A stretch of DNA of 63,309 nt, the filler included, from Folioceros fuciformis (Eukaryota), in assembly GCA_049999805.1 (NCBI GenBank). It is 5 parts of 4 records of this genome, joined end to end, with 100 filler letters (N's around TTAATTAATTAA, not from the genome) between each part and the next. Parts side by side here need not be neighbours in the genome. Positions count along the whole stretch, not along the records: positions 1 to 22,150 come from JBNGIO010006379.1; 4 more parts are not named here. One strand, 5' to 3'. Made by a program: the position numbers and the translations under genes. Below the pieces are notes generated by a model that saw nothing but the letters and a program-made list of their open reading frames with translations, searched no databases and had not been told where the DNA came from. Below, one piece after another: positions 6,419-63,175 of this stretch (within the stretch, counting starts at the first letter, position 1; each line of letters opens with the position of its first letter).

Positions 6419-8240
<1,822 letters not shown>

Positions 8241-9208
8241 TGCCAGGCCGGCTGCTGGGACGCGCACTCTCCGCTGCAACAGCTCACGATCGCAAATGCC
8301 GAAATAAACTTCGCTGTGAATTGCACTGAGAAGACATTACGGCAAATGCTGAAATAAGCTTTGCCGTCGCAGGGCACGAATCGCAAGGACAACGTATACA
8401 CATGGGGTGCAACAATTTCAATAAACTGGTCCTTCTGCAGTTACTCTCTGCGACTGTGTCACGACCAGATCCGTGGTCCCCTGCTTTCATACAACGCCTG
8501 CGATGGGCCTCTCTCGAAATTTTAGCTCATGTTGGTGAAGATGTTGCGAGGTAAGTTCCTGCGTTGTGTGTAGATGGAGCAGCACTCCAGTGGGCATGTG
8601 ATTCCAGCCAGCAGCGTCCACACGAGAATGCAGAGGGAGCATCTAGTTTAACTCGGTCCTGAATCCTTTGTGCTGTTTCACAACACAGAGCGTCATTCTG
8701 GAGACAGGACCATCATTCCGAGAGAATGTGGTTACGATTCAAGCTTCAAGCGCGTTCTGTCCTTGCCATCACCCACATGTTCCAGAGACCGTGGGCATCG
8801 GAGAGCATGCCAGTGATGGTGGGCATGGGAGAACGTGGAAGAGAATGATGGGCTTCGGCCGGTATGAATCATCCGTGCCCGGCGTCAGACTTGCTCTTGG
8901 ATCCCTCTCTTCTGGATTCGGACAAGTCTACCACGACCCACGTCTCCACCCGCATCCTCCTCGCTGCCTCCGTTCATCTTCAGACAATCGTCACCAGCCT
9001 GCTAGTACCAATTTTGTTTCCCATTTCTGCCTCTAGGACCGCACCCACAACCACCTCCAAGTGAGGACGGTAATATGCGCAAAGCTTCGGGACGCATGTG
9101 TGTTGATTTTGGAGGCTGCGGTATCGGAGGTATGGTGTGGTGGCAGTAACCGGGCATTCGGACTTTGTTTGGTGTGAAGGCTCAAATTTCGACGGCGGGC
9201 CCTAAAAG

Positions 9209-12112
9209 ATGGCCACAGTATGGCAACCGGACCGGGTGTGGAGGCAAGGAATTGGTGTGTGTACAGAGATTCCACGAGGAGCTCCTGGTCACCACATCTT
9301 AGAGAGTCAACTCCTGTCAAACAGAGCCTCCAGGTGCAGCACTGTAAGGAGCCCAGCACTTCCTCTTTCGAGAAAATGTGTGGGTGGGGACGAGTTTTCC
9401 AGCGATGGTCGTTGCCAGGAGCAGGAGCGCTTGTGGCAACAGCTTTTTCTTGACCCTGGCATGTGGTGGGACAACAGACGAGCTAAGAAGAGCTCCCGTT
9501 CGCCTGACTTCCGGCGTAAGGGTTCTGGCGAGGTGCTGTGGTTGAACGACACGTTCAAGCCAGCTTGGGTTGATGAGCTGCTCATTTCCTTGGATGTACA
9601 AATGGGTCATTGTCACTCTCCTTCCGAGTCCAGTTCTCCGGATGAGCCTGAATCTGGCAGGCGTGCAGGATCAGAAGTGGGCGTTGTCATGGCCGTGAAC
9701 ACGTTATGCCAGCAGGGGAAGCTTTGTGAGGCAGTCAGAGTCCTGGAATCTCTGACGCAAACAGACTCTGCTGTTTCTCAATCTCTGATCTGCAATGTGC
9801 TGAAATTGTGTACCTCTAAGAAGGATTTGGTTGTGGGGCGACGACTTCATGATGTCATCGTCAAACTTGGGTACGAGTCGAATGCTTACGTGGGGAATCA
9901 CGTCTTGCGCATGTATGCATGTCGGGGTAGGCTACAGGAGGCCATGGATGTGTTCACCAGGATAGGCAGGCCAGATGTGATCACGTGGGGTTCTATCATC
10001 TCTGCGCATGCTAAACATGGGAAACCCAATGAGGCCATACTACTGTACCATGAAATGCGTAAGTCAGGAGTGAAGGCTAATGGCCACGTCTTTGTAGCTG
10101 CCCTTCAAGCTTGTGCACTTGCCGTCGACTTGGAATCTGGAAGAAAAGTGCACTATGATGCGTTGCACAGTGGCATTCCCACTAACTTGTTTGTTGCCAA
10201 CTGCCTAGTGGACATGTATGCCAAATGTGGCAAACTGGAAGATGCACGCAAATGTTTTGACAGCATGGCCTTAAAGGATGTTGTGACATGGAATGCGCTG
10301 ATATCTGGGTATGCACAGCAGGGACTGGGCCAGGAGGCTCTTGTTCTGTATGGACAAATGGAGGAAGAGGTCTCCATTTTGGCTAACCATGTTACGTTCG
10401 CTTCTCTTATGAAGGCCTGTGGAAGCACTGGCGCCTTACAAAAGGGCAGGCAGCTGCACTCTCAGATTTTGAAAAGAGGACTGCTAGATGACATGCTGGT
10501 GGGCACCTGCCTGGTGGACATGTACGCAAAATGTGGTGAACTGGAAGATGCACGCCAGGTTTTTGACAGCATGGCCTCAAAGGATGTAGTGACATGGACA
10601 GCGCTGATTGCTGGGTATGCACAGCATGGACTCGGCCAAGAGGCGCTTGTTTTGTATGCAGAAATGGAACAAGAGGGCCTCATTTTGGCTAATCATGTTA
10701 CGTGTGCTTGCCTTCTGAAGGCCTGTGCAAGCACTGGAGCTTTGCAGAAGGGCAGGCAGCTGCACTTGCAGATTGTTGAAAGAGGCCTGCTGGATGATGT
10801 AGTGGTTGGCAATTGCCTAGTGGACATGTATGCAAAGTGTGGTGAGCTTGAGGACGCACGTCAGGTTTTTGACACCATGGACACCAAGGATGTGGTGACA
10901 TGGACCACTCTGATTGCCGGGTATACTGAGCAAGGTCTCAGCCAAGAGGCGCTTGTTGTGTATGAACAAATGGAGCAGGAGGGCCACATTTTGGCTAACG
11001 ATGTTACTTTTGTGTGCCTCGTGAGGGCCTGTGCAAGCACCTGTTCCTTACAGAAAGGCAGGCAGCTGCACTCACAGATTGTTGACAGAGGCTTGCTGGA
11101 CAACGAAGTTTTGGGCAACTGTCTGGTGGACATGTATGCAAAATGTGGTGAACTGGATGATGCACGCAGGGTTTTTGACAGCTTGAATACGAAGGGTGTG
11201 GTAACCTGGACCGCCCTAATATCTGGCTATGGTGCTTGTGACGAAGGTCACATGGCCCTAGCTTGTTTCGAGGAGATGTTAGTGGCCGGCATTCAGCCTG
11301 ATGATGCTACTTTTACTTGCCTTTTATCAGCATGCAGTCATGGGGGACTGGTTCACGAGGGTCGAAAGCTCTTCGATTCCATGCCTCAACAGCATGGCAT
11401 CAAACCTACTATCGAACACTTCATTTGCATGATTGATCTTCTTGGGCGTGCAGGCCATGTAGATGAGGCAGAGAAGATTCTACTGTCATGCGAGGCCCAA
11501 AGTAACATTGTGGGCTTGACATCTTTATTGAATGCCTGCAAAAGTCACGGGGACATAGAGAGGGCGGTCTGGTGTTTCGAAAGAATTGTTAAGCTGGACC
11601 CCCAAGAGGCGACCGCATATGTGCTCGTGGCCAACGCCTACGCAGACGCAGGTATGTGGGCCGATGTGGAGAGGATTGAAACACTGAGAAGGGCAGCAGG
11701 AGCTAACAAGAAACCTGCCGTGGCAACCATTGAGGTGCACAAGCAAGTGCATAGATTTGTGGTGGGAGAAAGGAGAGAGGATGTTGGGCTGAAGGCAGAG
11801 AGCACAAATGCACGTGTGAAGCAGGAAGGAGGCCACGTACCTCACACGAATTTGGTGTTGAAGCCACTGTCAGAAAAGGAGAAGGAAGACGCACTTTGTG
11901 GGCATGCTGAGAAGCTAGCTCTGGCTTTTGGCCTCTTGAACACTCCCAGTGGGACACCCCTGGTGGTAACGAAGAACCTACGCATGTGCAGTGATTGTCA
12001 CGGATCCACAGAGATCATGTCAAGGATTGAGCAGCGAAGCATCGTTGTCAGGGATGGGTACCGGGTTCACCGATTCGCAAATGGCTGCTGCAGCTGCAAG
12101 GCTCGACCGTGA
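9209..12112 (+). CDS. PLS-class PPR protein with N-terminal OSB/PDF-like motif and C-terminal DYW:KP (GRP-type) deaminase-like domain; candidate organellar U-to-C editing factor
   Basis: Intronless 967-aa ORF with L-S-P triplets (LVDMYAKCG..DA..VFD.M..KDVVTW), P2-L2-S2, E motifs, KKPAVATIEV, HAEKLA, KNLRMCSDCH and terminal CSCKARP. Confidence 0.95.
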   Translation: MATVWQPDRVWRQGIGVCTEIPRGAPGHHILESQLLSNRASRCSTVRSPALPLSRKCVGGDEFSSDGRCQEQERLWQQLFLDPGMWWDNRRAKKSSRSPDFRRKGSGEVLWLNDTFKPAWVDELLISLDVQMGHCHSPSESSSPDEPESGRRAGSEVGVVMAVNTLCQQGKLCEAVRVLESLTQTDSAVSQSLICNVLKLCTSKKDLVVGRRLHDVIVKLGYESNAYVGNHVLRMYACRGRLQEAMDVFTRIGRPDVITWGSIISAHAKHGKPNEAILLYHEMRKSGVKANGHVFVAALQACALAVDLESGRKVHYDALHSGIPTNLFVANCLVDMYAKCGKLEDARKCFDSMALKDVVTWNALISGYAQQGLGQEALVLYGQMEEEVSILANHVTFASLMKACGSTGALQKGRQLHSQILKRGLLDDMLVGTCLVDMYAKCGELEDARQVFDSMASKDVVTWTALIAGYAQHGLGQEALVLYAEMEQEGLILANHVTCACLLKACASTGALQKGRQLHLQIVERGLLDDVVVGNCLVDMYAKCGELEDARQVFDTMDTKDVVTWTTLIAGYTEQGLSQEALVVYEQMEQEGHILANDVTFVCLVRACASTCSLQKGRQLHSQIVDRGLLDNEVLGNCLVDMYAKCGELDDARRVFDSLNTKGVVTWTALISGYGACDEGHMALACFEEMLVAGIQPDDATFTCLLSACSHGGLVHEGRKLFDSMPQQHGIKPTIEHFICMIDLLGRAGHVDEAEKILLSCEAQSNIVGLTSLLNACKSHGDIERAVWCFERIVKLDPQEATAYVLVANAYADAGMWADVERIETLRRAAGANKKPAVATIEVHKQVHRFVVGERREDVGLKAESTNARVKQEGGHVPHTNLVLKPLSEKEKEDALCGHAEKLALAFGLLNTPSGTPLVVTKNLRMCSDCHGSTEIMSRIEQRSIVVRDGYRVHRFANGCCSCKARP

Positions 12113-12542
12113 CAACAAAAGCAAGAAGTCTTTATCAAGTGGAGACTACCACACCAGGGTTCAAGCTACTATTAGAAGCAAACTCGCAACTACATGAAAG
12201 AATGACCTAGCTATGGAAATTGGAAGATCCATTGTATGCGATACGCTTGATGCGTCAAGGAGTGGATGAATTAGTACTTTGATGAGAAGAGGGCGGAGCA
12301 TGATAATTTAGGCAACTAGTTGGGCGTGAGGGTGGAATAGGAATATTACTTAGAAAGGAAAGTTGGCTGCAACCTCAAGCCTAGGTGGGAAGGCCTCTTC
12401 TAATTAAGGAAATCCTGAAATAAGTGCCCATGTTTAAATGCGCCCTTTATGCCTTTCCGAAGTAGAGGTCATGAATACCTCTTACCTTATCAAATATAGA
12501 TAAATATCTCTTACCTTATTAAATAGGGTGCTTAGAGTTACA

Positions 12543-12636
12543 GTAAAAGCATGTATTGTGTAAAAGCATGTATTGTGACGCTTGGGATAGGACTTGTTGT
12601 TAGGATAGGACTTGTTGTTAGGATAGGACTTGTTGA
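12543..12636. repeat. Short tandem repeats (TAAAAGCATGTATTGTG x2; GGATAGGACTTGTTGTTA x3)
   Basis: Direct repeats visible in AT-rich intergenic DNA. Confidence 0.8.
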
Positions 12637-12914
12637 GTTTGGGCTATAAATAGGCATTATGTAGTCCAAGCTTATTATTCTTGTTGTTCTCACATCAAGT
12701 GACCAATCTTCTCACATTTACTGCTCATTGATCTTCATACTTGTTGTTATCACATTTCTGCTATTCACGTGGGCATCATGTCACTTCACTTTCATTTCAA
12801 TCTTAGATGAAATCATTGCATGTGTCTAACTTCATGGACCTAATCTTTTCTCCTCATGTGATTAGGTTAAGCTATTAAACAACGACAACCATAGAACACA
12901 ATCAATCAACAAAC

Positions 12915-13729
12915 ATGATCAAGTGTACTAAGAAATACTACATAAGGACATCCATCCTTTGGATTTTATTATGTGGTAGAATTGCGAATGATGACGAGTT
13001 ACAACATATACAATCAGTCATGTGCAACTTGGAGTGGGTGATAACAGAATATGTATCTTTAGCTGTCAGGAAAGTGAAGGCTAAAGCCCTTAAACTTGTT
13101 GACGAGTTTGTTGTATCTTATTTTTATGGGATACCCAAGAGTAGAGGAGAACTTCATTTAATGAGAAATAACACTAGGGTTCTCGAAGCTCTAGATTTAT
13201 TTGCCATCTCGAATGATTTGAATGTGAAAGTGGAAGAAGATGGTCAACAACACTCATCAAAGACCGCACCAGATGTACTACAATGGGCATGTAGAGTAGG
13301 AGTACCTCCTTCATCTTCTTTTATCAACAAACAAACATAATGGAAGCTCTATTTGGGATTAGTGCACAAGATTGTACATGTTTCACTTCTTGGGATTTCA
13401 CATTACATGACATGACCAACAATTCAATCAACAATAGAGTACCTTATGGTATGGACCTTGAGCTTATTGCACAACATATATCACTTCTGAAAGAAGTTGT
13501 GAGACAAGCTGAGGAAAGTTGTGACCTTGATGTTGCAAATCCTAAAGATTTATCTTTGAGAAGTAAGGCTCAATCAACAATCCAAGGTTCAAAGTTGTAT
13601 TTGGAGCACAACCTTGTTGTCTCAAGACCACATGTTCCTGAACGCCAACAAGATGCGACAATAGGGTGTGCATTTCCAAGATGTATTACAAGATTCTTGA
13701 TTGAATCTCTTGAGCTTAATGATATGTAG
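12915..13729 (+). mobile_element. AT-rich decayed coding region of a dispersed repeat family (probable TE relic), product unknown
   Basis: Two abutting ORFs of 141 and 129 aa. Segment 13174-13300 has a diverged second copy at about 20516-20640. Confidence 0.4.
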
Positions 13730-14384
13730 TAAATAGTATGTTCCCCACTTAAGATAACCAACTAATGATGATATGGGGATTCATACCCACACATAAAACA
13801 TCACCATTCTATGAGGATCTGTTTCAGGACATATTCAGTACGGTTGTTCCCCCTATAGAACTCATATCTCATGACCATTTGCGTGCTATGCTTAGTGGCG
13901 GCTCATATGGGAAATGGAATCGGTTGTTAAGCGATCACGATTAATCCTTTCGCTGTGGTGTGCGTGCGTTCGAGGTGCCGAAAACCGGGTTTGGTTCAAA
14001 TGAAGTAGATACGATTATAAAGAAACGCCTACTTGCGCCACTTCGATTAGGGTTTAGGGGTTTGGGGGTCATGGTCCCTAAACCCACGGTTCCGTCATTC
14101 TGGATTTGTGCTACGCACTCTCAAATCCGCGTACGATGGAAGAACCGCAAGCATGCCGACGGAAGTCCCACAAGCGTTAGGGTTATTGTATCTTTTAGCG
14201 ATTGCTCCCTCTCCTCCCTCTCCTCCCTCTCCTTCCTCTCAGGCCTAGAAACAGGCCCGGTGCAGGAGAGCTGGGACGGCACGTTTCACAGAGACGGACA
14301 GTCATGGAATTGCACGGCTCTTGCTCGAGCTGGCCGTGCATGAGAGTTCTAACGGTGCTAGGTTTTTAGCAAGGGAATGTGGTC

Positions 14385-14790
14385 AATCGGGCCTGAGGTG
14401 ACGAGGATGTTGTCATCACCAAGCCGCAGCTGAGGCTTATTGACGCTGCCAACCAAGTGGAAAACATGAAGGTGAAGGAAGGGAGTCGTGGCAGCTGTGA
14501 CCGATTCCTGAGTCTGAGCGGCCTACCACCAGCTCGGCTCAGCCTCGCCGAGGTCATGGATACGGATATTGTTTTTTTCTTCGGAGTTTGGAGACCACTT
14601 CGCCATAACCACTGCTCTACCTACATCCCAGACATCCCCGAGTACAAGCCACGCTGGAGAGTCGGGGAGGAGCGCGGCGGAGGCGTGGGGATGCCCCACA
14701 GCGTCATTGTCATCAGGAATACCTTTCAATTCTTCGTTCTGCGTGACCTGCCCGTCTCGAAACGGCCCAAGGCACGATGCATGCCCGAAA
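14385..14790 (+). pseudogene. Decayed partial duplicate of the adjacent IFR/PCBER-like gene
   Basis: ATCACCAAGCCGCAGCTGAGGCTTATTGACGCTGCCAACCAAGTGG and TCGGAGTTTGGAGACCACTTCGCCATAACCAC align with about 15385-15430 and 15564-15600, with indels. Confidence 0.8.
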
Positions 14791-14979
14791 GAGAACAACA
14801 TGAGATGCTTACCAAGCTTATAGAAAAAGTGGCCATTTTGTCCTAAGCCGCCACTTGGACGAAGCTTACTGTCAGAGGTACTGTTGTTGCACTGTATTGC
14901 CTCTGAGTCCACTCTCGCAATGACATGACACAGTCTTCTCACTCGGCACCTCATCCGGAAGGTCTTCAGGTGTGTCGCG

Positions 14980-16420
14980 ATGGCGCAGGGCTCGGACAAG
15001 GCGGACAGGATTCTGGTAGTTGGAGCTACAGGATATGTTGGCCGCTACATTGCCTTGGCCAGCGCGAGGCTGGGGTATCGAACCTTCGCCCTCGTCCGTC
15101 CCTCCTCCCTCTCGGATCCCGCAAAAGCCCCGGTCCGGCGGGACCTGGAAGACGTTGGAGTCACCTTCCTGCCGGTAACTCCAGGATGGCTTGAAACGCG
15201 TTTCAGTAGCATAGTATGTAGGTGTGATAGCCAGGTGGTGCAGCAGGGTTTTGAAGCTGCGCTGCGGGGGGTTTGACAGGGGGATTTGGACGACCATGGG
15301 AGCTTAATCCAAGCGTTGAAGCAAGTGGACGTGGTGATTTCCCTTGTAGGAGGATTCGGGGCTGAGGTGACGAGCATGGTCGACATCACCAAGCAGCAGC
15401 TGAAGCTGATTGAGGCAGCCAAGCAAGTGGGAACCATCAAGGTGAAGGGAGCAAGTCCTGGAAGTACTGTGAAAGGATTTTTGAGAGGGCTAGGAGTGGA
15501 GTGGCGCTCACCACCATGTAGGCTCTGTCTTACGGTGTGGCCTGGGTGCAGAGGTTTCTGCCCTCGGAGTTTGGAGACGACTTCGCCAAAACCACCGCTC
15601 TGCCTCCCAGACAACCCCTGGTCCGAGCCAAGCTTNNNNNNNNNNNNNNNNNNNNNNNNNNNNNNNNNNNNNNNNNNNNNNNNNNNNNNNNNNNNNNNNN
15701 NNNNNNNNNNNNNNNNNNNNNNNNNNNNNNNNNNNAGATTCGGGAGGCGGTGAAGGCGTCAGGGCTCGCCTACACCTTCGTTGTCAGCAACACCTTTCAA
15801 GGCTTCTTTGTCGCCGGCCTGTCTCAAGAAGGTCTCACCACACCACCAAAAGACAAGGCCGTAATCTACGGCCACGCCAAAGGTCTGTTACCACTTCCCC
15901 TCGCCCGTGATATGCGCAAGCCAGGCAAGCGGGCTGCTCACGCTGAACCACGTCGGGATACAACCGTCGTGCAGCTTTTTTTGTGGAGGAAGAGGACGTG
16001 GCAAGCTACACAGTCAGAGCTGCGGTCGATCCCAGAGCTGAGAACAAGGTGCTCTACATCAGGCCCGCCAGCAATAAACTGAGTCACCTGGAGCTGGTGG
16101 AACTGTGGGAGAAGAAATCCGGGTTTCAGTTGGTAAAGACTCAGCTGGAAGAAGAGGACGTCTTGAAGCGGGTGAACGGTAGGAACCTTGTTTACCCTTT
16201 CGCACCATAGCACTTCATGTTTCCACCCTAGTAATCTTGGTGCGTATTGCTCTCAGAGGCGTCGTTTCCTGCCGACATCTTCACGGCTTTTCTCTACTCT
16301 CTTTACGTCAAGGGAGATCAAACCAGCTTCGAAGTGCCTTCAGATGCGGTAGAAGCAACGCAGCTGTTCCCAGAGGTCCAGTACACCACAGTCGATCGGT
16401 ACTTGGACAGGTTCTTGTGA
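14980..16420 (+). CDS. NmrA-family isoflavone reductase/PCBER/PLR-like NADPH reductase, about 5 exons
   Basis: RILVVGATGYVGRYIALAS, QALKQVDVVISLVGG, KRFLPSEFG, conserved K..IREAVKASGLAYTFVVSN, EDVASYTVRAAVDPRAENKVLYIRP and YTTVDRYLDRFL*. Confidence 0.92.
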
Positions 16421-22895: not shown

Positions 22896-25800
22896 ATGAC
22901 TGTGCCGTGGGGACGTGGCGCAGGAACAGGTTCTTCGGCCAATATGTGGTTTTACGTCGCCGAGAACGGCGGCTCGTTCGAGTCGGAGTTCTCGGGTGAC
23001 ACTGCCGTGTATCGGGTGAAATCCTGGCTCGTCAGTCGCACCGGAATCGCAGTGGCTCATCAGATCCTTATGTGTGGCGTTGCTCGCTTGGATTCGCGGA
23101 AGACTCTGGCCTATTACGGTCTTCCTGATGATTCACGCCCTGTCGTGTTGTACAGTAAGCAACGGCTCGTTCCGAATGCCCCGCCTCCACCACCGGAAGA
23201 GGTGGAGAGAGATGATCCTCATCTGCCTTCGCCTTTATCGGCAACATCTAGTCACCCTTTGGATGATTGTCCTGATCCTGCCCTGAAGGTCCTACGTCAG
23301 TATGAAAGTCAGTTCACGCATCATCTTCACGAGGCGGACGCTTTTTTGGCTGCTAGCACATCAACGTTGGAAGTTTGCAAAAGGCTGCTCATGGAAATTC
23401 AGGTGCAGGAATTTGCGCTGGGTACTGGCCTGAAGAGCCTGCAACAATACGATCCGCAGTTCAATGAATTCATCAACGCCTACAACTGGCAATATGACCA
23501 ACACTCCGAGATTTTGCGGAATCTGGACAGGGACTTAAGAAGACTCCAGGCTTGTAAGCTTCATCCTGCTCTAAGATCAGAGGGGTGCACCACTTTGCGT
23601 GATTGCCTCAATGAAGCAACAGTCCAGGAAGCGGTAGAGGAATGTAAGCCTTATCTTCGACACATTTACGCAAAGGGTATGGAGTGGAAAAGCAACTTAG
23701 CAGATTTGCAGCAGACGGTGCAGGAGCTCCTAGAGCTTCAACCTGTGGTTGATGTGCGCTCCCTAGAAGCTCAAATGGAACAATATTCTTCTCTCCTAGT
23801 GGAACAGTCGAGCATACGACAGACCCTCAGGTTCTTCACTGGTGCCCTAGCTGTCTTGCCTTTTTCCTTGTGGTCACGGTGTCCTAGGTCTTGCTTATGT
23901 GCAATTTCGTTCGCAGTGATTGAAGGATGACTGCGTGCGTTTCTAGCTCTCCACTGAATCGTGCTACATTGTTGTGTTTGTCTCATCTGCAGTAAGGACG
24001 TAAAGACTATAAAGAATTTTGTAGAAGAGCGAAGTTCCAGCCAATTTTCTTCTCAATGGTCTTACGATGGGGCTTCCAATCGTAACTATATCAGACCACA
24101 TGATGCACTGTCTGCCTATCGACCTATGCTTGAAATTCATAAGGCCAAATTGCTTCCAAGAATGTCAACGTTGGATTCTCAATTTGCACAGTTTTTGGAG
24201 CACTGCGTGAGGTGTAAGAACTCTATGAGCCTTTGTGTTCACACCCGCATGCAAGGTGTAGCAGCTGTGCAGGCGATCATCAAGGGCATGTTGTCTGAGC
24301 TGCCTGTCTACAGAGAGGTAATGAGCGAGGGGCAGAATATGTTTCAGAGACTGGAAATGGTGCGGAAGGTGGGATTATGTTATAAAGCTTGTCTAGCTGA
24401 GGTAGTACGGAGGGAAAACTCCAAGAAATTATATATGGGTCAGGGGGGTCAGTTAGCTGAGAAGATGGCCCGGACCAGGGCGACAGAGGTGGCCCGACGT
24501 GATGCATTTCTCAAGACTCACGGTAAATCCCTTACTCCGGAGATATTACAGAGGATGGGTCTCTTTGAGAACCCCAGTCAATGCGTTGTAAATATTGCTC
24601 CTTATGATGAGCATTTGCTTAAGATAGATGTAGCTGATATTGACAAGTACTCCCCAGAGCACTTGAGGGGTTTATATCGTAGTGAGCTCCAGACTGCAGG
24701 CTACGGGGAAGAACAGCAGCGAGGGGAGTCTAGGGATAACAATGGTGTACATACAGAAGATGATGGTAGCATTGATGAGATAGCTGGTACAAGCCGATTG
24801 GAGGTGGAGAACACGTTTCTAAAATCTCAGCTTGCTGCTGCTGTGGCGATCATCTGCAGCCTGGATCCAGAGATGGAGGTCGAGGACGTTGGACAAGGCA
24901 AGGAGTTCGGTGATAACGCTGACAATTTAGTGGTGAGTAGCAGACTTGCTTTTCGGAAAACCACAGAGGCTCTGAGGTTGAAGGACGATTACGTGCAGCT
25001 TCTTAAACGCCAACTAGCCGTAAAAGAGGCGCAGTGCTTGTCCTACGAGAAGCGGATAAAAGACCTGGAAGCATGTAATCAGCACTTGTACATAGAAAAC
25101 CTCAAACCTTTTCCTGAAGAGCAGGGCCATCCTGTAGCAGGCGGTGAGTGTGCAGACTCAGATGTCTCTGAAGTCACAGGGCTAGGGAGGATGGGTACAG
25201 CCCCTGAGCCAATGGATGAAGGTGTGAGCAGTGAGGTTGAGTGTGGCCAAAGGCAACTTGGCCCATCAAGTACAGTGGAACATCCTTGCACCCCAGCTGA
25301 GCAGACTGGCCCCGGATGGGAAGGAGATACGACAATGTGTGACGTGTCTGCCGCCGGACTTGCTGTTGATGCTGCCATGGTTGATGGTCGGAAGGAGAAT
25401 GCAGACACCAGTGAAAATTGGGTGTCAGACAGATGTGCTGACTCTACAGAGCAGGCCAATGTAGGTAGATGTCCTGAGCTGCTCCTTCCCAAATTTACAG
25501 GAGAGACAGCAGAATGTGGAGGGGGGTTACAAGCACCCGTATCCCCAGCCGTGGAGAGGGTCACAGCTGCTCCAGAGGCAGCGAACGAGGCAGATGACCA
25601 GTTGGCATCTTTGCAGTCTGCACTGTTTGATAAAACGAGGCAGTGTGAATTGGCAGAAGTCCGGATCAAGTCAGCGGAAGACGCTGCAGATCGCCTTCGT
25701 GCGGAGCTGGATCGCCTCCACGCAGAGTTGGAAAGAAATACTGCACATGTTAATGAATGCCAGGTATGCTTGAAATGGTATGCTTTGTCTTCGTGGTTAC

Positions 25801-27162
25801 AGGTGATGGACTGATAAAATGCCTTGAATTGAATTTGTCGAAGGAAAACTGTGCTCACTTGGAGAATCGGCTACACGATGCACTACAAGAAGCAAGAACA
25901 CACCGTTGTGCCGCTGAGCGACGAGCTGCTGAGTATCAGTCTCTCCGTGCTTCAAGTGTAAGGCTCTGTGGTCTAATGGAAAGACTGAGGAACTGTATCT
26001 CTGCTACTGGAGGGGCAAATGTGTTTACAGAATCTCTACGGGCACTTGCTATATCTGTTTCAAGGTGAATTTGCTGAAAACCCTCTCATTCTCTGAACTT
26101 GCAGAACAAGCATAGGAAGTTGTTGGCTGACCTTGATTTCTGGTGTTGGCAGTACCAGTGATGCCGGTGATGATGCAGCTGAGTTTCGTGCATCCATCAG
26201 GGTTTTAGCAGATAAAGTGGGAACTCTTGCTCAGCAACGAGCTGAGTTGCTGGAGCGTTGCAGCATTGCAGAGAGTGCGCAAACTGGTCTGAAGAAAGAC
26301 CTGGAGGAAAAGTCTGAGTTGTTGAAGAATTTCTATGCTAAGCGGAAGGCGGAGAAGCAGGTACTCAATCAGCCATTGTTTTCAGATTTTTCACCTTAAG
26401 AGCCTGAAGAGTACCTTCTCCCTTTTACATCTACCCCTTGTCAACCGTTTGGCTTTTATACAGACATGGGTCCCATCCCAGGACCGGTTGAGGAATTTTA
26501 CCTGATTGTGTGGTTTTCATCCTCCCGTTGATTAGTACCTTATTTTCCCCCTTTTCTGTTTTAGTAAATTTCAGACTGGCGTCCTTCCCACCGAGATTCT
26601 TAACTGTCGATCGGATCGAGACATGGGGTTTGTCCTTGTATATTAGCTTTTCTGTTTCCTACAGGCTGTCCTACTCAAAGTGGACTTTCTTATCATGCCG
26701 CCTTTGTGGGGTCCTGGATCAAGAGTTGAATAACTGTTGAAGACTTTTCATGCTTATCATGTGATAGTCAATGCGTTTGCATGGCAGGCAAGCAAGGAGA
26801 AGATATGCTTCACACGCTTCAATGTGCATGAGCTTGCGGTGTTTATGCCGAATGCTGATGGTCATTACGAGGCTATAAATGTGAACTGTCCAAACTACTA
26901 CTTGTCTGACGAATCTATTGCATTGTTTTTGGAGCATCCTCCAAATTCACAACAGTATATTGTGGGTCAAATAGTACACATTGACCGGAATATGGCAAGG
27001 CCACCACCTGACGGTGGTTGTCCTCCATCTGGGAATGGGAGTAGCAGTGAGGCAATCACAGGAGGGGTTCCGAAATGTCGCACTAACCCTTATGGCTTAC
27101 CCATTGGAACAGAATATTGTGTTGTTACGGTGGCCATGGCTCAGATTTCACTTGTGCCTTGA
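22896..27162 (+). CDS. ATG11: Autophagy-related protein 11; exons about 22896-23830, 23993-25763, 25844-26064, 26153-26360, 26788-27162
   Basis: N-terminal YVAENGGSFE ubiquitin-like region, HPLDDCPDPALKVL, YKACLAEVVRR, NCAHLEN.LH.A..EARTH.CAA.RRA.EY, and C-terminal KEKICFTRFNVHELAVF..NCPNYYLSDES..NPYGLPIGTEYCVVTVAM. Confidence 0.95.
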
Positions 27163-31270: not shown

Positions 31271-33733
31271 ATGTCCAGCTTGTCCACTCCTGGAGCCGCA
31301 TCAGCCTCTACTTCCAAGCATCTTCCTCTGCCCCCGGCCCTTAACCATGGACTTTCAGCAGGTGACAGCTCCGTCGTCCTTCGTTCTCCCCCTTCCACGG
31401 GGGGAGACGAGGGGCTGGTGCGAGGGTGTAGGTCTGTTGGTGTCGATGGTGAAGGGGGCCAGGAACATCTCGACGGCGGGCGCAAGAAGGTGCTCAATCC
31501 TTTTGCCCAGGAGTTTGTCCCGGGCCCGCCTCACCATCAGCCCGATGCTGGGGAGGGCTTTAGAGCAACAGCCGGGGTCTCTGATGATGGTGTGAGCCAT
31601 GGAGACGAGGCAGGGAAGCAGATTGCGGGTCCCATTTCCAATCCTCCTCCGAACCACGCTGGTGGTCTCACGAGCAGCTTTGGTGGAAATCGCAGGGGTT
31701 CTCGCTGCAAGCGAGGAAATTCTCAGGCGCCTGCCCCTGCGTCTGCACCTATACCTGCTGCATCTTCGGGAGGACGCCGAGGGCAAATGTTGAATGCTAA
31801 CCACTTGTTAAATTTTCAGTATGATCGTTTTCAGCGACCACCCTCACGACCTGCTCCACCGCAGCGTGGCAAGCAGAAGCAGCGGCCTCAGCCCTACAAC
31901 AAGGAGCTTTTCTTGCAGGCCAACTTCCGGTTTCTGGTGTCGGATTTGGGTGATTATGCACAGAACGCCAGTGACCCCGACAAGATGCTGGAGTGGGAAG
32001 ACGTGGCAGCGGTGAACGTGTTAGCACCTCAGCCTCTACAGTGCCCCATCTGTCTGGATAGTCCACCTGTGTGCCCCCAGATCACGTCTTGTGGCCATAC
32101 GTTTTGTTTCCCCTGTATTCTGAGGTATATGATGATGGGGGAAGAGAATCCGAGTGGGGACTACTACAAGAAGTGCCCTCTGTGCTTTGCAATGATCTCT
32201 TGCAAAGAGATGCGCACAGTATCAGTGCACAGCGTGAAGCAGTACGAGGTTGGTGATGTCCTCAAGTTCACCCTGCTTGTTCGGCGAAAGGACTCCATCA
32301 TACCATTTGAGAGCAGAGGGAGGCGGAGCTCTCTGTCATACAGCACAGATGGGTATTGCCAAGTTTTCTCCAAGTTTTCCCTCACCTCGGATGCAGAGCA
32401 AACTACCAATAAAGCTCTGTCAGAGCTGAAGGAATGGATGGAGAGAGTGCAGGTGGAAGGCTCGAATGAGGATCTTGAGTTGCTGCCTTATGGGTTGGCA
32501 GCGACTGAGCAAGTGCAGCGGAGGAAAGTGGCTTGGGGACAGCATAGGGCGTCGGAGTTCTTGAGCAGTAGCCCTAATGTGAGACAGAGGATTATGGCCC
32601 AAGCCAAAGCAGGTGAACAGCTTGCAGAGAGGGTGGGAAATCTTGAATTGGAAGGCCAGCGGCAAAGTCCCTCAACTGGAAAAGGAGGATTCTCAAGAAA
32701 GGTAGATGTTGCAGCAGAGACAGAGGCAGCCCTGGCGGAGCTAAGAGAGAGGGCTGGTTGGGTGTACGAGAGCGCTTTCTCGGATGATGAAGGTGAAGAA
32801 AAACCAGAGGGGCGGGTGAGGAGCTCGAATCAGCGTAATCTGGTTCAGTGGGAGCAGTGGGTTCCAGATCATGGGGTAGAAGTGGCTGAAGGCAAAGAGG
32901 CAGAGGCGAAGGAGGATGCTGGAGACGAAGAAGCAGAGTCGTACTACTTCTATCAGGCGGCAGACGGGCAATCACTGATCCTCCATCCACTTAACATGAA
33001 ATGCCTTCTGCAGCATTTCAGGACTTACGAGGCTCTCCCTTCCAGTATACAAGCGAAACTGGTGGAGTTGGAAGCTGTGACCCAGACAGAAGCAGCAAGG
33101 AAGCGATTCCGTTATCTGAGCCACCTTCCTTTGACAACAACCTTCTACCTTTGCGAGGTAGATCTAAGAGATCAGATTCCGGCAACAGCCTTCCATCCTT
33201 TTTCAGAAGAGCTGCGGATCAGGCAGAACCGACGCCAACGGGTTGAGCAGTTGGAGAAGCAGCAGAGAAAAGAAGAGCAGCGGCTTGCAGCAGCGACTGC
33301 ATCCGCTAAGTCTGTGCGATTTCCTCATGCAACGGACTTCGTTCCCATCGTAAAGTCTGCAAATGCCGCTGACAATTCTGAGGTCCTGGACACAGGGGCG
33401 GTGCAACCAGGCAGTGCCCCGTCACCGAGCCCCCCAGGGTTGGAAGAACGGAAACGTTTTTCCAGCGTTGCAAAACTGGGTTATGCCTCAGGACATGACG
33501 CACCCAATCTGTCTGAGACCAGGGCAGTAGATGCTTCGTCTCCTTCCCAGTCGTCTGAAACAGGCGGAAGCAGTGGCGCAACCCCACTTACTTTTGCTGC
33601 CATTATCCAAGCTCAGGTTAATGCAAAGCCCAGCCAGGAGGAGAGTCAAGGGCTCCGGGGTTCTGGCAGTGGTAAGAAAACGAAGAAGGGTGTAAAAGTG
33701 CTGTTGTCAACAGCTGGGGGAAGACGATACTGA
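31271..33733 (+). CDS. RNF10: RING finger protein 10 (RNF10/Mag2)-like E3 ligase, intronless CDS
   Basis: NANHLLNFQY, YNKELFLQANFRFLVSD, C3HC4 RING CPICLDSPPVCPQITSCGHTFCFPCI..CPLC, YYFYQAADGQ..ILHPLNMKCL, RKRFRYLSHLPL and VLLSTAGGRRY*. Confidence 0.93.
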   Translation: MSSLSTPGAASASTSKHLPLPPALNHGLSAGDSSVVLRSPPSTGGDEGLVRGCRSVGVDGEGGQEHLDGGRKKVLNPFAQEFVPGPPHHQPDAGEGFRATAGVSDDGVSHGDEAGKQIAGPISNPPPNHAGGLTSSFGGNRRGSRCKRGNSQAPAPASAPIPAASSGGRRGQMLNANHLLNFQYDRFQRPPSRPAPPQRGKQKQRPQPYNKELFLQANFRFLVSDLGDYAQNASDPDKMLEWEDVAAVNVLAPQPLQCPICLDSPPVCPQITSCGHTFCFPCILRYMMMGEENPSGDYYKKCPLCFAMISCKEMRTVSVHSVKQYEVGDVLKFTLLVRRKDSIIPFESRGRRSSLSYSTDGYCQVFSKFSLTSDAEQTTNKALSELKEWMERVQVEGSNEDLELLPYGLAATEQVQRRKVAWGQHRASEFLSSSPNVRQRIMAQAKAGEQLAERVGNLELEGQRQSPSTGKGGFSRKVDVAAETEAALAELRERAGWVYESAFSDDEGEEKPEGRVRSSNQRNLVQWEQWVPDHGVEVAEGKEAEAKEDAGDEEAESYYFYQAADGQSLILHPLNMKCLLQHFRTYEALPSSIQAKLVELEAVTQTEAARKRFRYLSHLPLTTTFYLCEVDLRDQIPATAFHPFSEELRIRQNRRQRVEQLEKQQRKEEQRLAAATASAKSVRFPHATDFVPIVKSANAADNSEVLDTGAVQPGSAPSPSPPGLEERKRFSSVAKLGYASGHDAPNLSETRAVDASSPSQSSETGGSSGATPLTFAAIIQAQVNAKPSQEESQGLRGSGSGKKTKKGVKVLLSTAGGRRY

Positions 33734-35471: not shown

Positions 35472-36842
35472 TCAATAAGGCCGGACCACGCCATGCCTGT
35501 CAGAGGTAGGCGCCCGATTGTGGCGTTGTTCTCTGAAGAGCCGAAGAAGAGCTGATGCCTGAAAGGAAAGGAAAGTTGAAAGTGTTAGAGCCTCAATGCA
35601 CAACAAGATTCAGCAGTACACGCTTGGAGCTGGAGGACGAAACCCAGGGCCAAGAATTACCTTTTCTTTGGCGCGAGCAGTGCCAGTTTGAGAAAGGGCG
35701 TGCAATGGTGGTATAGCTCCTTCTCGCAACACCATAGCTCGATGTTTGTTGCTTACCATACATAACTGCAGAAGAGCAGCTGCAGCATTCTCCTTTCCTC
35801 GAGGAGACCCAGCTTCGACGACCTCCACAAGTGCAGGAATACCTCCTTCATCTCCAATAGCAACCTTACCCTCAGGTATAGTTGCCAAATTGGCCAAAAC
35901 TGCCACTGCCTTGTCCACCATGCCAGCGGCAGGATCCGACATGAGCTCAACTAGGGGTTTGATAGCCCCATGTCGCACGATCCTGGCCTTGTTGTCATGG
36001 TAAATGGAAAGGTTGAAAAGTGCAGTGGCTGCATCCTTCTTTCCCCTTGGAGAACCGTTGATAAGTAAATGCACCAAGGGCGGGATGGCACCAGAAGCTC
36101 CAATGGTCACCTTGTTGTCATCCATAACCGACAAGCTGAAGAGCGTAGCAGCAGCGTTCTCCATAGCCTCCGGGTTCCCGACCTTGAGCACATGCACTAG
36201 AGGATCGATGGCACCCGCAGCCGCGATCTCCGACTTGTTGATGTCGTTGATGGATAGGTTAAGCAGCGCAGTTACTGCATTCTCTTGCGTCTTGGCATCG
36301 TGAGATCTCAAGAGCGCAACCAAGGGCCGCACAGCTCCGGAATTGGCAATAGTGATCCGGTTCTCCATGTTGAACTTGGCCAGCAGCCGCAATTCGGCCG
36401 CGGCAGCCCGGTGCACCTCAACAACGTCAGACTGCAGATCCAGCACCAATTGATCCACCCTCTGCTGCGTGGCATCGTCCGTGCCGGACATGACATCAGG
36501 CACAGCGGCGGGCACGATCCTCGGCATGGAATGCTCCCGATCCTCCCCTCGCCTCCTCCACACCATGGACGGCCTGTCCGGAACACGCGCCGGAGACCCC
36601 GGCTCATCGCTAAAGCCCGGGGACGCCACCTGCAACTGGTGGTGCGCAGAGGGCGGCAGCCCATCCAGCTCCCCCGAGAAATCACTGAAGGAAAAGGCTC
36701 CATTAACCGAACGAGGAGAGTCGGCGTGCACCACGTCTGCAGCGGCAGAATTCTGCGCATCCTCCTGGCTAGAAGACGCACTGGATCCAGACGACGTACG
36801 GCTGTGGTCGACAAGGAAATCTCCTTCCCCTGCACCCCCAGC
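35472..36842 (-). CDS. ARM-repeat C-terminal part of a PUB4-like U-box E3 ligase (5' end lost in the gap)
   Basis: AAAELRLLAKFNMENRITIANSGAVRPLVALL, QENAVTALLNLSIN, RGKKDAATALFNLS and RGKENAAAALLQLC. Intron 35559-35660, last exon ASALLRLFREQR..PY*. Confidence 0.9.
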
Positions 36843-62200: not shown

Positions 62201-63175
62201 CAGGTCTGCTATCCCTGGTTGAGCTCCAGCCTCCACGTCCTCTTTGGTATGGTTTGCCCCGTCCAGCAAACAAGGCCGTCTGACCTCGTTCATGCTGCTT
62301 GCCAGATTTAGAGGACAGCCTCGTGGCTTCCTCCTGCAGCAATGCCCCAACGACACCGTTAAATGTCAAGGGTTCTGCATCAATCTTCAAGGCTTTCGAC
62401 AGCCGGGCCTCCACCTTTGCCAATGCTTGCTGACCAGTGACAAACGGTCCAAAGCTGGGAGGGAGCGAGCTTAGCAACCTGCAACTCGCTTCGTAGTCAG
62501 TGATTTTCACACCCGTAGAGCATAACCTAGCTCGTGCACTTCTAAATCTCCCGATATAGTGCTCCACAGTCTCTCCTTCTGTCATTCTAAGACTGTGGTA
62601 TCTGGCTGATGCAGACATAGATGCAGCCATATCGTGGGAGGCAAACATCAATGCCAAGTGATCCCACATATCCTTCGCTGAATCTCCTGGCCCATCTGAG
62701 GCTTGTCTGATTATTTCGGGACCCAAACCTGACCGGATCAAGTTCCTAGCTCGAATATCCGCCAAAGCCCATACTGGCAGGTCAGCTGAAGTGGCATCAC
62801 TGATGGTTTTGCAGTCTCTCCGCTCACAATATGCCAGAGGTTCTTCTCTTCAAGCGCACCTTGCATGCGCATTACCCATATGTCATATTCAGCTCCAGTC
62901 ACCAAGCGGTCATTTTCCTTAAATCCGCCACTAGTAAGTGACTGCAACGCAGCCAGCATGTCATCTCTAGCTTTCTCTTCATCATCCATGTTGGGGTGAC
63001 TAAACCACGAAGTGTCTCTCTCTGACAGGTTTGTATTCACGGATGCAAGGGTAGAATCTGCATCTGTGCCCCTACTTGACTCACTATCTGACAAATCATC
63101 AACATCTATGATCCCGACTTCTTGCGCTAAATGACGAAGCCAGGCAGGTGTTCTATAGGAGTGACTCTCACTCAT
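59269..63175 (-). mobile_element. Ty1/copia LTR retrotransposon gag-pol (gag, zinc knuckle, protease, integrase, RT), degenerate
   Basis: CHWCGIPGHWARDC, WFVDSGAS, LWHLRCGH, LVHSDLCGP..FIDDFTR..LRSDNGGEY..NGVAE, KARLVARGFSQIPGIDF, QMDVKTAFLHG, LYGLKQSPRAW and LYVDD, in PR-IN-RT order. In-frame TAG at 61626 and frameshifts. Confidence 0.96.

What the first reader, a model, noticed from the sequence alone, without database searches (positions are those of the whole stretch)
11708..12112. DYW:KP (GRP-type) domain: candidate reverse U-to-C RNA editing enzyme
Seen: the PG box is replaced by KKPAVATIEV, the Zn-binding motif is HAEKLA rather than HSEKLA, CxDCH is intact, the segment between PG box and HAE is short, and the protein ends ARP rather than DYW. 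Established: KPAxA/HAE variants are typical of hornworts, ferns and some lycophytes, the lineages with U-to-C editing, and synthetic DYW:KP proteins have been reported to perform U-to-C editing. Inference: this is a native U-to-C editor. Native factor-site pairs and the amination chemistry remain poorly resolved.
Basis: partly seen in the sequence, partly recalled or inferred. Interest (0 to 1): 0.75.

Follow-up and report, generated by a model that had tools for sequence, protein, structure and literature searches.

The report
PPR editing factor with DYW:KP domain
This is an intact plant nuclear gene for an RNA-binding repeat protein whose enzyme domain belongs to the known variant class linked to "reverse" uridine-to-cytidine RNA editing in organelles; it is one more member of a described family.

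Summary
Window 11708-12112 (+) is the C-terminal domain of one intronless 967-codon ORF (9209-12112). The protein is a PLS-class PPR protein with 18 PPR motifs, E1, E2 and a DYW-family deaminase domain. The domain has the KPAxA box, HAE, Met92, Lys88 and CSDCH, is 133 aa long and ends in ARP.

I built a tree of 118 DYW domains with the three diagnostic motifs masked. The query falls with the four GGRP-tailed proteins, inside an HAE/KP-type clade and away from 66 of 67 PG/HSE rows. It is KP-like at 6 of 6 KP/PG-discriminating columns.

U-to-C activity is inferred only from synthetic consensus KP proteins (PMC9478123, PMC11845758). No target, expression or assay data could be obtained.

The DYW:KP class and its GRP subgroup are already described, so this is a new member of a known kind.

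Two extras came up. The N-terminus carries an OSB-type "PDF" single-strand-binding motif. Three PLS triplets form a 306-bp tandem repeat under purifying selection.

The parts
9209..12112 (+). Whole intronless ORF (967 codons plus stop) for a PLS-class PPR-E1-E2-DYW:KP protein. An in-frame TAA lies at 9203-9205, directly upstream of the ATG.
   Evidence: ORF list; sequence read; Pfam PPR, E_motif and DYW_deaminase; AF2 mean pLDDT 87.2; Foldseek top hit 9kfx_A at E 2e-39.
9209..9397 (+). Residues 1-63, predicted disordered. Candidate organelle-targeting presequence (inferred, not tested).
   Evidence: pLDDT below 50 for residues 1-63. No Pfam family in residues 1-164.
9416..9610 (+). Residues 70-134: one copy of the OSB-type PDF motif (WWDNR...PDF signature).
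   Evidence: Alignment A1. Profile search found 1286 representatives at E<=1e-3. An SSB domain lies upstream of the motif in 5 of 25 scanned hits, and PPR repeats follow an N-terminal motif in 8 of 25. The profile matches the NCBI-named OSB1 of Physcomitrium patens, residues 258-316, i-E 1.8e-26. AF2 folds it at block pLDDT 71-89. It is the only copy in the six frames of the window.
9683..11506 (+). PPR tract, residues 159-766: five P1-L1-S1 triplets followed by P2-L2-S2, 18 motifs in all. This is the RNA-recognition part.
   Evidence: Segmentation by coordinates, consistent with Pfam PPR at 258-288 and PPR_2 at 663-710 and with the helix pairs of the model.
10198..11182 (+). 306-bp tandem repeat, 3.2 copies at 81% matches, corresponding to PLS triplets 2-4 (residues 358-663, window 10280-11197).
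   Evidence: TRF. Pairwise identity 77-82% nt and 69-79% aa. dN/dS 0.17-0.24 with dS 0.63-0.75.
11507..11707 (+). E1 (11507-11608) and E2 (11609-11707) motifs.
   Evidence: Pfam E_motif at residues 780-842; segmentation.
11708..12109 (+). DYW:KP domain, GRP-like subgroup; 133 aa counted from the second Lys at 11711. Sub-features: KPAVA box 11711-11725; H65-A66-E67 at 11903-11911; Lys88 at 11972-11974; Met92 followed by C93-S-D-C96-H97 (CSDCH at 11987-12001); Glu101; tail ARP at 12101-12109.
   Evidence: Translation; Pfam PF14432; PDB sequence matches 9kfx 2.5e-45, 7w86 3.1e-29, 7o4e 2e-25; tree; discriminating columns; near-invariant H899, E901, K922, C927, C930, H931, H954, C961 and C963 in 48 sequences.

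Best explanation
Window 9209-12112 (+) is an intact, intronless nuclear gene. By the subgroup it belongs to, it most likely comes from a hornwort.

It encodes an organelle RNA-editing specificity factor of the PLS-PPR family whose catalytic module is a DYW:KP domain of the GRP-like subgroup.

Proposed working, by step:
- The disordered N-terminus directs import into plastid or mitochondrion. This is inferred.
- The 18 PPR motifs bind a single-stranded RNA stretch one base per motif, with S2 opposite position -4. This is shown for relatives and inferred here.
- The residues at position 5 and the last position of each P and S motif, read by the PPR code, predict (5'->3', positions -19 to -4) U n n U Y n G A n U A n y G n n. 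Three further nucleotides are then contacted by E1/E2/DYW, followed by the edited base. The code is recalled from the literature and comes from no call.
- The zinc-dependent DYW:KP domain acts on a uridine and converts it to cytidine. [quoted passage not shown] The native nitrogen chemistry is unresolved.
- The extra N-terminal PDF motif may add non-specific single-strand nucleic-acid affinity. This is speculative.
For: Gene integrity:
- The ORF is 967 codons, against 165 aa or less for the other ORFs in the neighbourhood.
- The three internally duplicated PLS triplets have dN/dS 0.17-0.24 at dS 0.63-0.75, so coding constraint has held since the duplication.

Architecture:
- Pfam finds PPR, E_motif and DYW_deaminase.
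- The AF2 model has mean pLDDT 87.2.
- Its best structural match is the synthetic PPR-DYW/RNA complex 9kfx_A (E 2e-39, TM 0.76 on the target, 46% identity).

Catalytic residues:
- H65/E67, C93/C96, H97, Lys88 and the C-terminal H...CxC are all present.
- They sit at columns that are at least 90% conserved in 48 relatives.

KP class:
- The domain has the KPAxA box, HAE, Met92 and a length of 133 aa. PMC11845758 gives 132-133 aa for DYW:KP domains and names Lys88 as essential. PMC9478123 names M92 and the conserved Ala of HAE.
- It is KP-like at 6 of 6 columns that separate 37 KP-clade rows from 67 PG rows.
- In a tree of 118 domains with the box, HxE and tail columns masked, the query groups with the 4 GGRP-tailed proteins (SH-aLRT 86).
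- That group lies inside an 18-row starred set of GRP-, DRH- and other HAE-type rows (96) and a 38-row KP clade (87). 66 of 67 PG rows lie on the other side of the midpoint root.

GRP subgroup:
- The best hits, at 61-67% identity, end in GGRP.
- The query's only departure from the KP consensus is Lys->Glu at position 101, shared with the GRP rows, which have E, E, Q and T there.
- I take this to be the Lys that PMC9478123 calls K103 and reports as Glu in GRP proteins. That mapping is my inference.

Activity of the class:
- Synthetic GRP-based KP2 and KP3 edit U-to-C in E. coli with no C-to-U detected (PMC9478123, passages).
- Lys88 substitutions abolish U-to-C (PMC11845758, passages).
- The crosslink/Schiff-base model is from PMC11332814 (abstract).
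Against: - No enzymatic, genetic or transcript evidence exists for this protein.
- No organelle genome or editome of the source organism was available, so the predicted target could not be matched to any site, U or C.
- The evidence for U-to-C comes from consensus-designed proteins, not native ones. One of them, KP6, also performs C-to-U. True U-to-C could not be reproduced in vitro with KP6 (PMC11332814 abstract).
- HAE versus HSE does not decide the direction of editing (PMC9478123 passage), and Lys88 is conserved in PG domains too (PMC11845758 passage).
- The tail is KARP, whereas all 4 closest relatives have GGRP. The consequence is unknown.
- The GRP clade's support is 86 (SH-aLRT, quick search, 123 columns for 118 rows), which is not a starred branch.
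- The hornwort origin is inferred from the subgroup only. The nearest relatives are unnamed assemblies.
Confidence: 0.68

Rival explanations
1. The protein is an active editing factor, but it deaminates C to U like canonical DYW:PG proteins, or it works in both directions.
For: - The full zinc/glutamate deaminase site is intact.
- Synthetic KP6 also shows C-to-U activity, which carboxylic acids stimulate in vitro (PMC11332814 abstract; PMC11845758 passages).
- A few substitutions switch the direction of editing (PMC11845758).
- HAE/HSE does not discriminate the two reactions (PMC9478123 passage).
Against: - The query sits in the GRP subgroup. The GRP-based KP2 and KP3 gave U-to-C and no detectable C-to-U in E. 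coli (PMC9478123 passage).
- Lys88 is present.
- All 6 KP/PG-discriminating columns are KP-like and none is PG-like.
Confidence: 0.12
2. The gene is catalytically dead or a non-editing RNA-binding PPR protein, for example a stabiliser or a helper that lends its PPR tract. Alternatively it is a silent young pseudogene whose frame is still open.
For: - No expression evidence was obtained.
- The tail departs from the GGRP of its 4 nearest relatives. In PG domains the C-terminal triplet is needed for activity (PMC9478123 passage on D134/W136).
- Large PPR families do contain degenerate members. This is general knowledge, from no call.
Against: - The frame is open over 967 codons.
- The internal repeats show purifying selection, dN/dS 0.17-0.24.
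- Every zinc ligand, the catalytic Glu and Lys88 are retained.
- The only deviation from the KP consensus at columns conserved at 85% or more is the substitution typical of the GRP subgroup.
- The AF2 model is confident throughout the domain.
Confidence: 0.12
3. The protein acts mainly through its N-terminal PDF motif on single-stranded organellar DNA, as an OSB-like genome-maintenance factor. On this reading the PPR-DYW part is secondary.
For: - The motif is homologous to that of the NCBI-named OSB1.
- The PDF motif of AtOSB1 is reported to be sufficient for ssDNA binding (PMC6963530 passage).
Against: - There is only one motif copy and no SSB/OB domain.
- About 84% of the protein is a complete editing-factor architecture.
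- The same N-terminal motif occurs on ordinary PPR-E-DYW proteins with canonical DYW tails: P0244 and P0228 and P0057 and P0083.
Confidence: 0.05

Closest known systems
Hornwort GRP-type DYW:KP PPR proteins, and the synthetic KP2/KP3 designed from them. Described by Gerke et al. 2020 and Gutmann et al. 2020, which I did not read and know only as cited in PMC9478123; I read passages of PMC9478123.
   Same: - PLS-E1-E2-DYW architecture.
- KPAxA box, HAE, Met92, Lys88 and a 133-aa domain.
- No Asp in the C-terminal triplet.
- Lys->Glu at the column I equate with K103.
- Same clade in the motif-masked tree.
   Different: - The tail is K-A-R-P, whereas the 4 nearest relatives have G-G-R-P.
- Best identity is only 61-67% over the last 268 residues, so no close orthologue was found in the searched collection.
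- It carries an N-terminal PDF motif, which 2 of those 4 GRP relatives also have.
- I did not see the KP2/KP3 sequences themselves; they are in figures and supplements.
Canonical DYW:PG C-to-U editing factors: OTP86 DYW domain (PDB 7o4e), DYW1 (7w86) and the synthetic PPR-DYW/RNA complex (9kfx).
   Same: - Same fold and overall architecture: 9kfx_A at Foldseek E 2e-39 and 46% identity, phmmer 2.5e-45.
- Same Zn1 ligands (H, C, C), catalytic Glu and active-site Lys.
- 69 residues from HxE to the C-terminus.
   Different: - PG box replaced by KPAxA.
- Ser->Ala in HxE.
- Val->Met before the first Cys.
- Ile->Leu at position 84 and Phe->Val at position 119.
- A 3-residue shorter stretch between the box and HxE.
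- No DYW triplet.
- It falls on the other side of the tree from 66 of 67 PG rows.
[quoted passage not shown] I read passages of PMC6963530; the original description by Zaegel et al. 2006 is recalled and was not read.
   Same: - The roughly 60-residue motif at residues 70-134 matches the motif of the NCBI-named OSB1 of Physcomitrium patens at i-E 1.8e-26, using a profile built only from PPR proteins.
- The same profile finds SSB-domain proteins with 1-2 C-terminal copies.
   Different: - There is no OB/SSB domain in this protein.
- The motif is N-terminal and single, and it is fused to a PPR editing factor.
- The protein is therefore not an OSB; it only shares the module.

Membership tests
PLS-class PPR-E-DYW RNA editing factors | Tandem P-L-S pentatricopeptide repeats ending in P2-L2-S2 | tested here: met
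   Pfam PPR 4.5e-93 and PPR_2 5.2e-89. There are 18 motifs of 31-36 aa in P-L-S order. The model shows helix pairs throughout residues 155-765.
PLS-class PPR-E-DYW RNA editing factors | [quoted passage not shown] | tested here: met
   PF20431 E_motif, E 1.5e-15, residues 780-842.
PLS-class PPR-E-DYW RNA editing factors | C-terminal DYW-family deaminase domain with HxE...CxxC zinc site and deaminase fold | tested here: met
   PF14432, E 3.1e-32. HAE and CSDC are present. PDB matches 9kfx, 7w86 and 7o4e. Foldseek 9kfx_A with TM 0.76 on the target.
PLS-class PPR-E-DYW RNA editing factors | Edits a defined organellar RNA site | not testable with these tools
   No genome, organelle sequence or editome of the source is held.
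DYW:KP domain (U-to-C-associated variant) | KPAxA-type box in place of the PG box | tested here: met
   K-P-A-V-A at 11711-11725. Positions 3 and 5 are Ala in 33 of 37 KP-clade rows, against Gly in 67 of 67 and Ser in 64 of 67 PG rows.
DYW:KP domain (U-to-C-associated variant) | HAE instead of HSE at the zinc site | tested here: met
   Ala in 37 of 37 KP-clade rows, against Ser in 67 of 67 PG rows. PMC9478123 notes that this position does not by itself set the direction of editing.
DYW:KP domain (U-to-C-associated variant) | Conserved Lys88 (essential for U-to-C in KP2, KP3 and KP6) and Met92 | tested here: met
   With numbering from the second Lys, K88 and M92 fall exactly where PMC11845758 and PMC9478123 place them.
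DYW:KP domain (U-to-C-associated variant) | Domain length 132-133 aa, 3-4 residues shorter than PG before HxE | tested here: met
   133 aa. Box-to-HxE distance is 65, against 68 in PG. PMC11845758 gives 132-133 aa.
DYW:KP domain (U-to-C-associated variant) | Clusters with KP rather than PG domains in a phylogeny | tested here: met
   The tree had the diagnostic motifs masked. The query lies inside a 38-row KP clade (87) and an 18-row starred set (96); 66 of 67 PG rows are elsewhere. Limits: quick search, 123 columns, and reference rows labelled by their own motifs.
DYW:KP domain (U-to-C-associated variant) | Occurs in a lineage with U-to-C editing (hornworts, lycophytes, ferns) | tested here: inconclusive
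The nearest named relatives are a lycophyte and ferns at 49-53% identity. The GRP/DRH neighbours suggest a hornwort, but only via the statement in PMC9478123.
DYW:KP domain (U-to-C-associated variant) | Catalyses U-to-C conversion | not testable with these tools
   This needs an expression assay or a knockout.
GRP subgroup of hornwort DYW:KP | C-terminal triplet G-R-P | tested here: not met
   The tail is A-R-P, preceded by Lys. The 4 nearest relatives have G-G-R-P. The R-P is kept and, as in GRP proteins, there is no Asp. I therefore call it 'GRP-like'.
GRP subgroup of hornwort DYW:KP | Lys (K103 of PG numbering) replaced, by Glu in GRP proteins | tested here: met
   Position 101 is Glu. It is Lys in 33 of 37 KP-clade rows and 54 of 67 PG rows, and E, E, Q, T in the 4 GRP rows. 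Equating this column with 'K103' of PMC9478123 is my inference.
GRP subgroup of hornwort DYW:KP | Forms one clade with GRP-tailed proteins | tested here: met
   A 5-row group of the query plus P0002, P0003, P0004 and P0015, SH-aLRT 86, not starred.
OSB (organellar ssDNA-binding) proteins | PDF motif | tested here: met
   Profile match to the NCBI-named OSB1, i-E 1.8e-26. 1286 representatives at E<=1e-3.
OSB (organellar ssDNA-binding) proteins | N-terminal OB-fold/SSB domain | tested here: not met
   No SSB family in the whole protein or in residues 1-164. It is not an OSB protein.

The most novel reading that the evidence does not exclude
The OSB-type PDF motif fused to the N-terminus is a functional accessory module of PPR editing factors. 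It would be a sequence-independent single-strand nucleic-acid clamp or nucleoid tether that raises the affinity of the PPR tract or places it on nascent organellar transcripts. It recurs on both C-to-U (PG) and putative U-to-C (KP) factors of seedless plants. I found no open paper linking the PDF motif with PPR proteins. If the reading is true, this gene would be a native, PDF-assisted U-to-C editor with a testable predicted target.
Probability: 0.3. Interest if true: 0.55.

Novelty: new member of a known kind. Interest (0 to 1): 0.3.

Why it matters
U-to-C editing is the one pyrimidine transition for which no native enzyme-site pair has been shown. The papers I read rely on consensus-designed proteins, and the nitrogen chemistry is still a model (PMC11332814 abstract; PMC11845758 passages). 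PMC9478123 stated in 2022 that no U-to-C factor had yet been characterised. The listings show no title reporting one since, though I did not read all of those papers.

An intact native GRP-like gene with a readable PPR code is a usable candidate for such a test. It is, however, one of many family members, so its value is as material and not as a discovery.

The PDF-PPR fusion is a small, cheap-to-test addition to how editing factors might engage nucleic acids.

Tried and rejected
- Whole-genome search of the window's own assembly: no genome is held. I therefore could not count KP against PG genes or reach organelle contigs.
- Expression: the look-up of sequencing runs listed no holder on record as RNA. 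Nothing on expression was learned either way.
- N-terminal motif by word-indexed search (17 candidates, none scored) and by the protein atlas (no usable hit). Both were uninformative. The HMMER profile search then worked.
- The listing of cluster members to obtain names for motif-bearing proteins: the database was switched off. I obtained a named OSB1 relative through instead.
- Earlier scan notes: none by place, sequence or words.
As a result PMC13386178 was seen only in a listing.
I repeated the segmentation from coordinates alone.
- Target prediction stops at a degenerate motif, because no organelle sequence could be searched.
- L-motif, S1-4 (N/G), P1-1 (G/N) and S2 (I/N) code pairs were left as 'n' or 'y' instead of being guessed.
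- I considered, and rejected, that the domain might be a PG type with chance substitutions. All 6 discriminating columns and the masked tree say otherwise.
- Supplements not seen: Fig. S2 of PMC11845758 and Supplementary Fig. 3 and Table 2 of PMC9478123 hold the KP/GRP alignments. They could sharpen the GRP comparison.
Full report
**1. What is at the coordinates**

Window 11708-12112 (+) translates without a stop into 134 residues plus the terminator. It begins with the KKPAVATIEV box, contains HAEKLA and CSDCH, and ends in ARP. The opposite strand is broken by stops.

The stretch is the 3' end of a single ORF, 9209-12112 (+), of 967 codons. It is the only ORF longer than 165 aa that overlaps 8000-15000. 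An in-frame TAA lies directly upstream of the ATG.

Pfam finds PPR repeats (PF01535, 4.5e-93; PF13041, 5.2e-89), the E motif (PF20431, 1.5e-15, residues 780-842) and the DYW deaminase family (PF14432, 3.1e-32, residues 875-964).

The 'short segment' amounts to three residues. The distance from the box to HxE is 65 in the query. It is 64-65 in most HAE-type relatives and 68 in the great majority of PG/HSE relatives, while HxE to the C-terminus is 69 in both. The alignment puts the gap early in the stretch between the box and HxE. That stretch is the region OTP86 structural work calls the gating domain (PMC7611903, passages).

**2. Anatomy of the protein**

I segmented the protein by coordinates.

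| Part | Residues |
|---|---|
| Pre-PPR N-terminal region | 1-158 |
| Five P1-L1-S1 triplets | 159-663 |
| P2-L2-S2 | 664-766 |
| E1 | 767-800 |
| E2 | 801-833 |
| DYW-type domain | 834-967 |

An AlphaFold2 model, made from a 48-sequence alignment, has mean pLDDT 87.2 and pTM 0.73. It shows helix pairs across the whole PPR tract and a mixed alpha/beta C-terminal domain. Residues 1-63 and 132-154 are below pLDDT 50.

Foldseek's best solved match is the synthetic PPR-DYW protein bound to its target RNA, 9kfx_A (E 2e-39, TM 0.76 normalised on the target, 46% identity). Other PPR structures follow. By sequence the last 170 residues match 9kfx (2.5e-45), DYW1 7w86 (3.1e-29) and the OTP86 DYW domain 7o4e (2e-25).

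**3. PG or KP?**

A search with residues 700-967 returned 2835 proteins at E<=0.001 among 6015 candidates, of which the best 120 were listed.
- The top hits, at 55-67% identity, are unnamed assemblies. Their tails are GGRP (P0002, P0003, P0004, P0015) or mostly DRH.
- The named relatives are a lycophyte (Diphasiastrum, 53%) and ferns (Ceratopteris, Adiantum, 49-50%).
- Canonical PG/HSE/DYW proteins of gymnosperms and others lie at 40-47% identity.

I extracted 118 DYW domains. P0006, P0038 and P0065 were dropped for lacking a terminal HxE...CxxCH domain. I labelled the rows by their own motifs: 67 PG, 27 clean KP including the query, and 24 mixed.

I then built an IQ-TREE tree with the box, HxE and last-three columns removed.
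- The query groups with the four GGRP proteins (SH-aLRT 86).
- That group lies within an 18-row starred set of GRP-, DRH- and other HAE-type rows (96).
- The set lies within a 38-row clade that holds only KP and HAE-type 'mixed' rows (87).
- 66 of 67 PG rows lie on the other side of the midpoint root.

In a column-by-column comparison of 37 KP-clade rows with 67 PG rows, six columns discriminate the two: positions 3, 5, 66, 84, 92 and 119 in KP numbering. The query is KP-like at all six.

With numbering from the second Lys, the domain is 133 aa, and Lys88 and Met92 fall exactly where the literature places them. PMC11845758 gives DYW:KP domains as 132-133 aa and shows Lys88 to be essential. PMC9478123 states that V95 of PG corresponds to M92 of KP.

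The query's only departure from the KP consensus, at columns conserved at 85% or more, is Lys->Glu at position 101. It shares this with the GRP rows (E, E, Q, T). This fits the statement in PMC9478123 that the conserved Lys 'K103' is Glu in GRP proteins and that GRP proteins lack the otherwise conserved Asp of the tail. Equating the two columns is my inference.

The tail itself is K-A-R-P, whereas the four relatives have G-G-R-P, so 'GRP-like' is the accurate label. PMC9478123 describes GRP and DRH as the two hornwort variants. This is my only basis for saying that the window probably comes from a hornwort.

**4. Is the gene alive?**

Residues 358-663 are three PLS triplets that form a 306-bp tandem repeat (TRF: 10198-11182, 3.2 copies, 81% matches). 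They are 77-82% identical in DNA and 69-79% in protein.

Between copies, dN/dS is 0.17-0.24 at dS 0.63-0.75. The duplications are therefore old, and the copies have since evolved as coding sequence under constraint. The specificity positions differ between copies (N/N, T/N and T/N for the P motifs; T/D, N/D and N/G for the S motifs).

All zinc ligands, the catalytic Glu and Lys88 are present at columns that are at least 90% conserved in 48 relatives.

I could obtain no transcript evidence.

**5. How it most likely works**

By analogy with characterised PLS-DYW factors, the PPR tract binds single-stranded organellar RNA one nucleotide per motif. [quoted passage not shown]

I read the fifth and last residues of the P and S motifs with the published PPR code: N/D = U, T/D = G, T/N = A, N/N = C or U. 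The code is recalled and comes from no call. This gives, for positions -19 to -4, U n n U Y n G A n U A n y G n n.

The edited base is expected to be a uridine. In the current model, Lys88 attacks C4 of the uridine to give a Schiff-base RNA-protein intermediate that is resolved to cytidine (PMC11332814 abstract; PMC11845758 passages).

What is shown here is the architecture, the intact site and the class membership. What is inferred is the import into organelles, the target, the direction of the reaction and the chemistry.

**6. An unexpected N-terminal module**

Residues 70-134 carry a WWDNR...PDF signature that four of the first 120 hits also showed by pattern search.

I built a profile from the query and those four PPR proteins and searched 1.84 billion representatives with it. 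It found 1286 proteins at E<=1e-3, 567 at E<=1e-10 and 68 at E<=1e-30, with a median of two copies and up to 13 among the best 150.

Pfam on 25 of the hits gave the following:
- an SSB domain upstream of the motif in 5;
- PPR repeats downstream of an N-terminal motif in 8, two of them with canonical DYW domains;
- a kinesin in 1;
- weak, unrelated families in 1;
- nothing in 10.

Among the best 150 hits, 10 are PPR proteins, all with the motif near the N-terminus.

A relative of one SSB-plus-motif protein is named by NCBI 'protein OSB1, mitochondrial [Physcomitrium patens]'. The PPR-derived profile matches its residues 258-316 at i-E 1.8e-26. The module is therefore the PDF motif of the organellar ssDNA-binding OSB proteins, which is reported to be sufficient for ssDNA binding in AtOSB1 (PMC6963530, passages).

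AF2 folds the motif with block pLDDT 71-89 between two disordered linkers. Among the 120 DYW hits it occurs in 5: two GRP, one DRH-like and two PG. Only P0015 among these is independent of the profile.

Two full-text searches found no paper that connects the PDF motif with PPR proteins. Subscription papers are not covered, so I do not claim the link is unpublished.

**7. Comparison with what is known, and novelty**

The DYW:KP class, its restriction to hornworts, lycophytes and ferns, its hornwort GRP and DRH subgroups, and the U-to-C activity of consensus-designed KP2, KP3 and KP6 are all in print (PMC9478123, PMC11845758, PMC11332814; a hornwort review, PMC10030945, passages).

This gene is a new member of that known kind. 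It differs in small ways (ARP tail, PDF motif, recent-looking triplet repeat), but not in kind.

I found no report of a characterised native factor in the listings (6 papers; 25 papers, 23 listed). I read only the papers named above.

**8. Verdict**

- Observation: confirmed.
- Interpretation: partly supported. The class is established, and the reaction is plausible but untested.
- Novelty: low.
- Interest: 0.3, mostly as a ready candidate for the still-missing native factor-site test, with the PDF-PPR fusion as a side lead.

Noticed in passing
window 9416-9610 (+), residues 70-134 of the PPR protein: An OSB-type PDF motif is fused to the N-terminus of a PPR editing factor. The same fusion recurs on other PPR and PPR-DYW proteins of both PG and KP type. 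No open paper links the two.
   Followed up: yes
window 10198-11182 (+): A 306-bp tandem repeat of three whole P1-L1-S1 triplets at 77-82% nt identity, with dN/dS 0.17-0.24. The specificity residues have diverged between copies. It looks like PPR-tract growth by triplet duplication.
   Followed up: partly
window 10280-10999 (+): The P1 motifs of triplets 2-4 are 36 residues long, against 35 for P1-1 and P2. I did not compare this with other hornwort-type PLS proteins.
   Followed up: no
window 60531-62669 (-): Two adjacent ORFs with copia-type LTR-retrotransposon domains: gag, zinc knuckle and Pol beta-barrel in one; integrase core and SH3-like in the other. This is a plant retroelement with its frame split between ORFs.
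   Followed up: no
window 39292-40464 (-) and 43998-44834 (-): Two neighbouring PRISE-like Rossmann-fold (progesterone 5-beta-reductase/iridoid synthase-like) ORFs. The second matches only the C-terminal two-thirds of the profile. This is possibly a tandem gene pair.
   Followed up: no
window 22896-25814 (+): Two consecutive ORFs match the N- and C-terminal halves of the ATG17-like autophagy domain. They are probably exons of one ATG11/ATG17-like gene.
   Followed up: no
window 7743-8240 (-), 14980-15276 (+), 31271-33733 (+), 35610-36566 (-): The flanking ORFs carry CoA-binding, NmrA-like, RING-finger and armadillo-repeat domains respectively. This is a gene-dense eukaryotic nuclear region at about 40-57% GC.
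   Followed up: no
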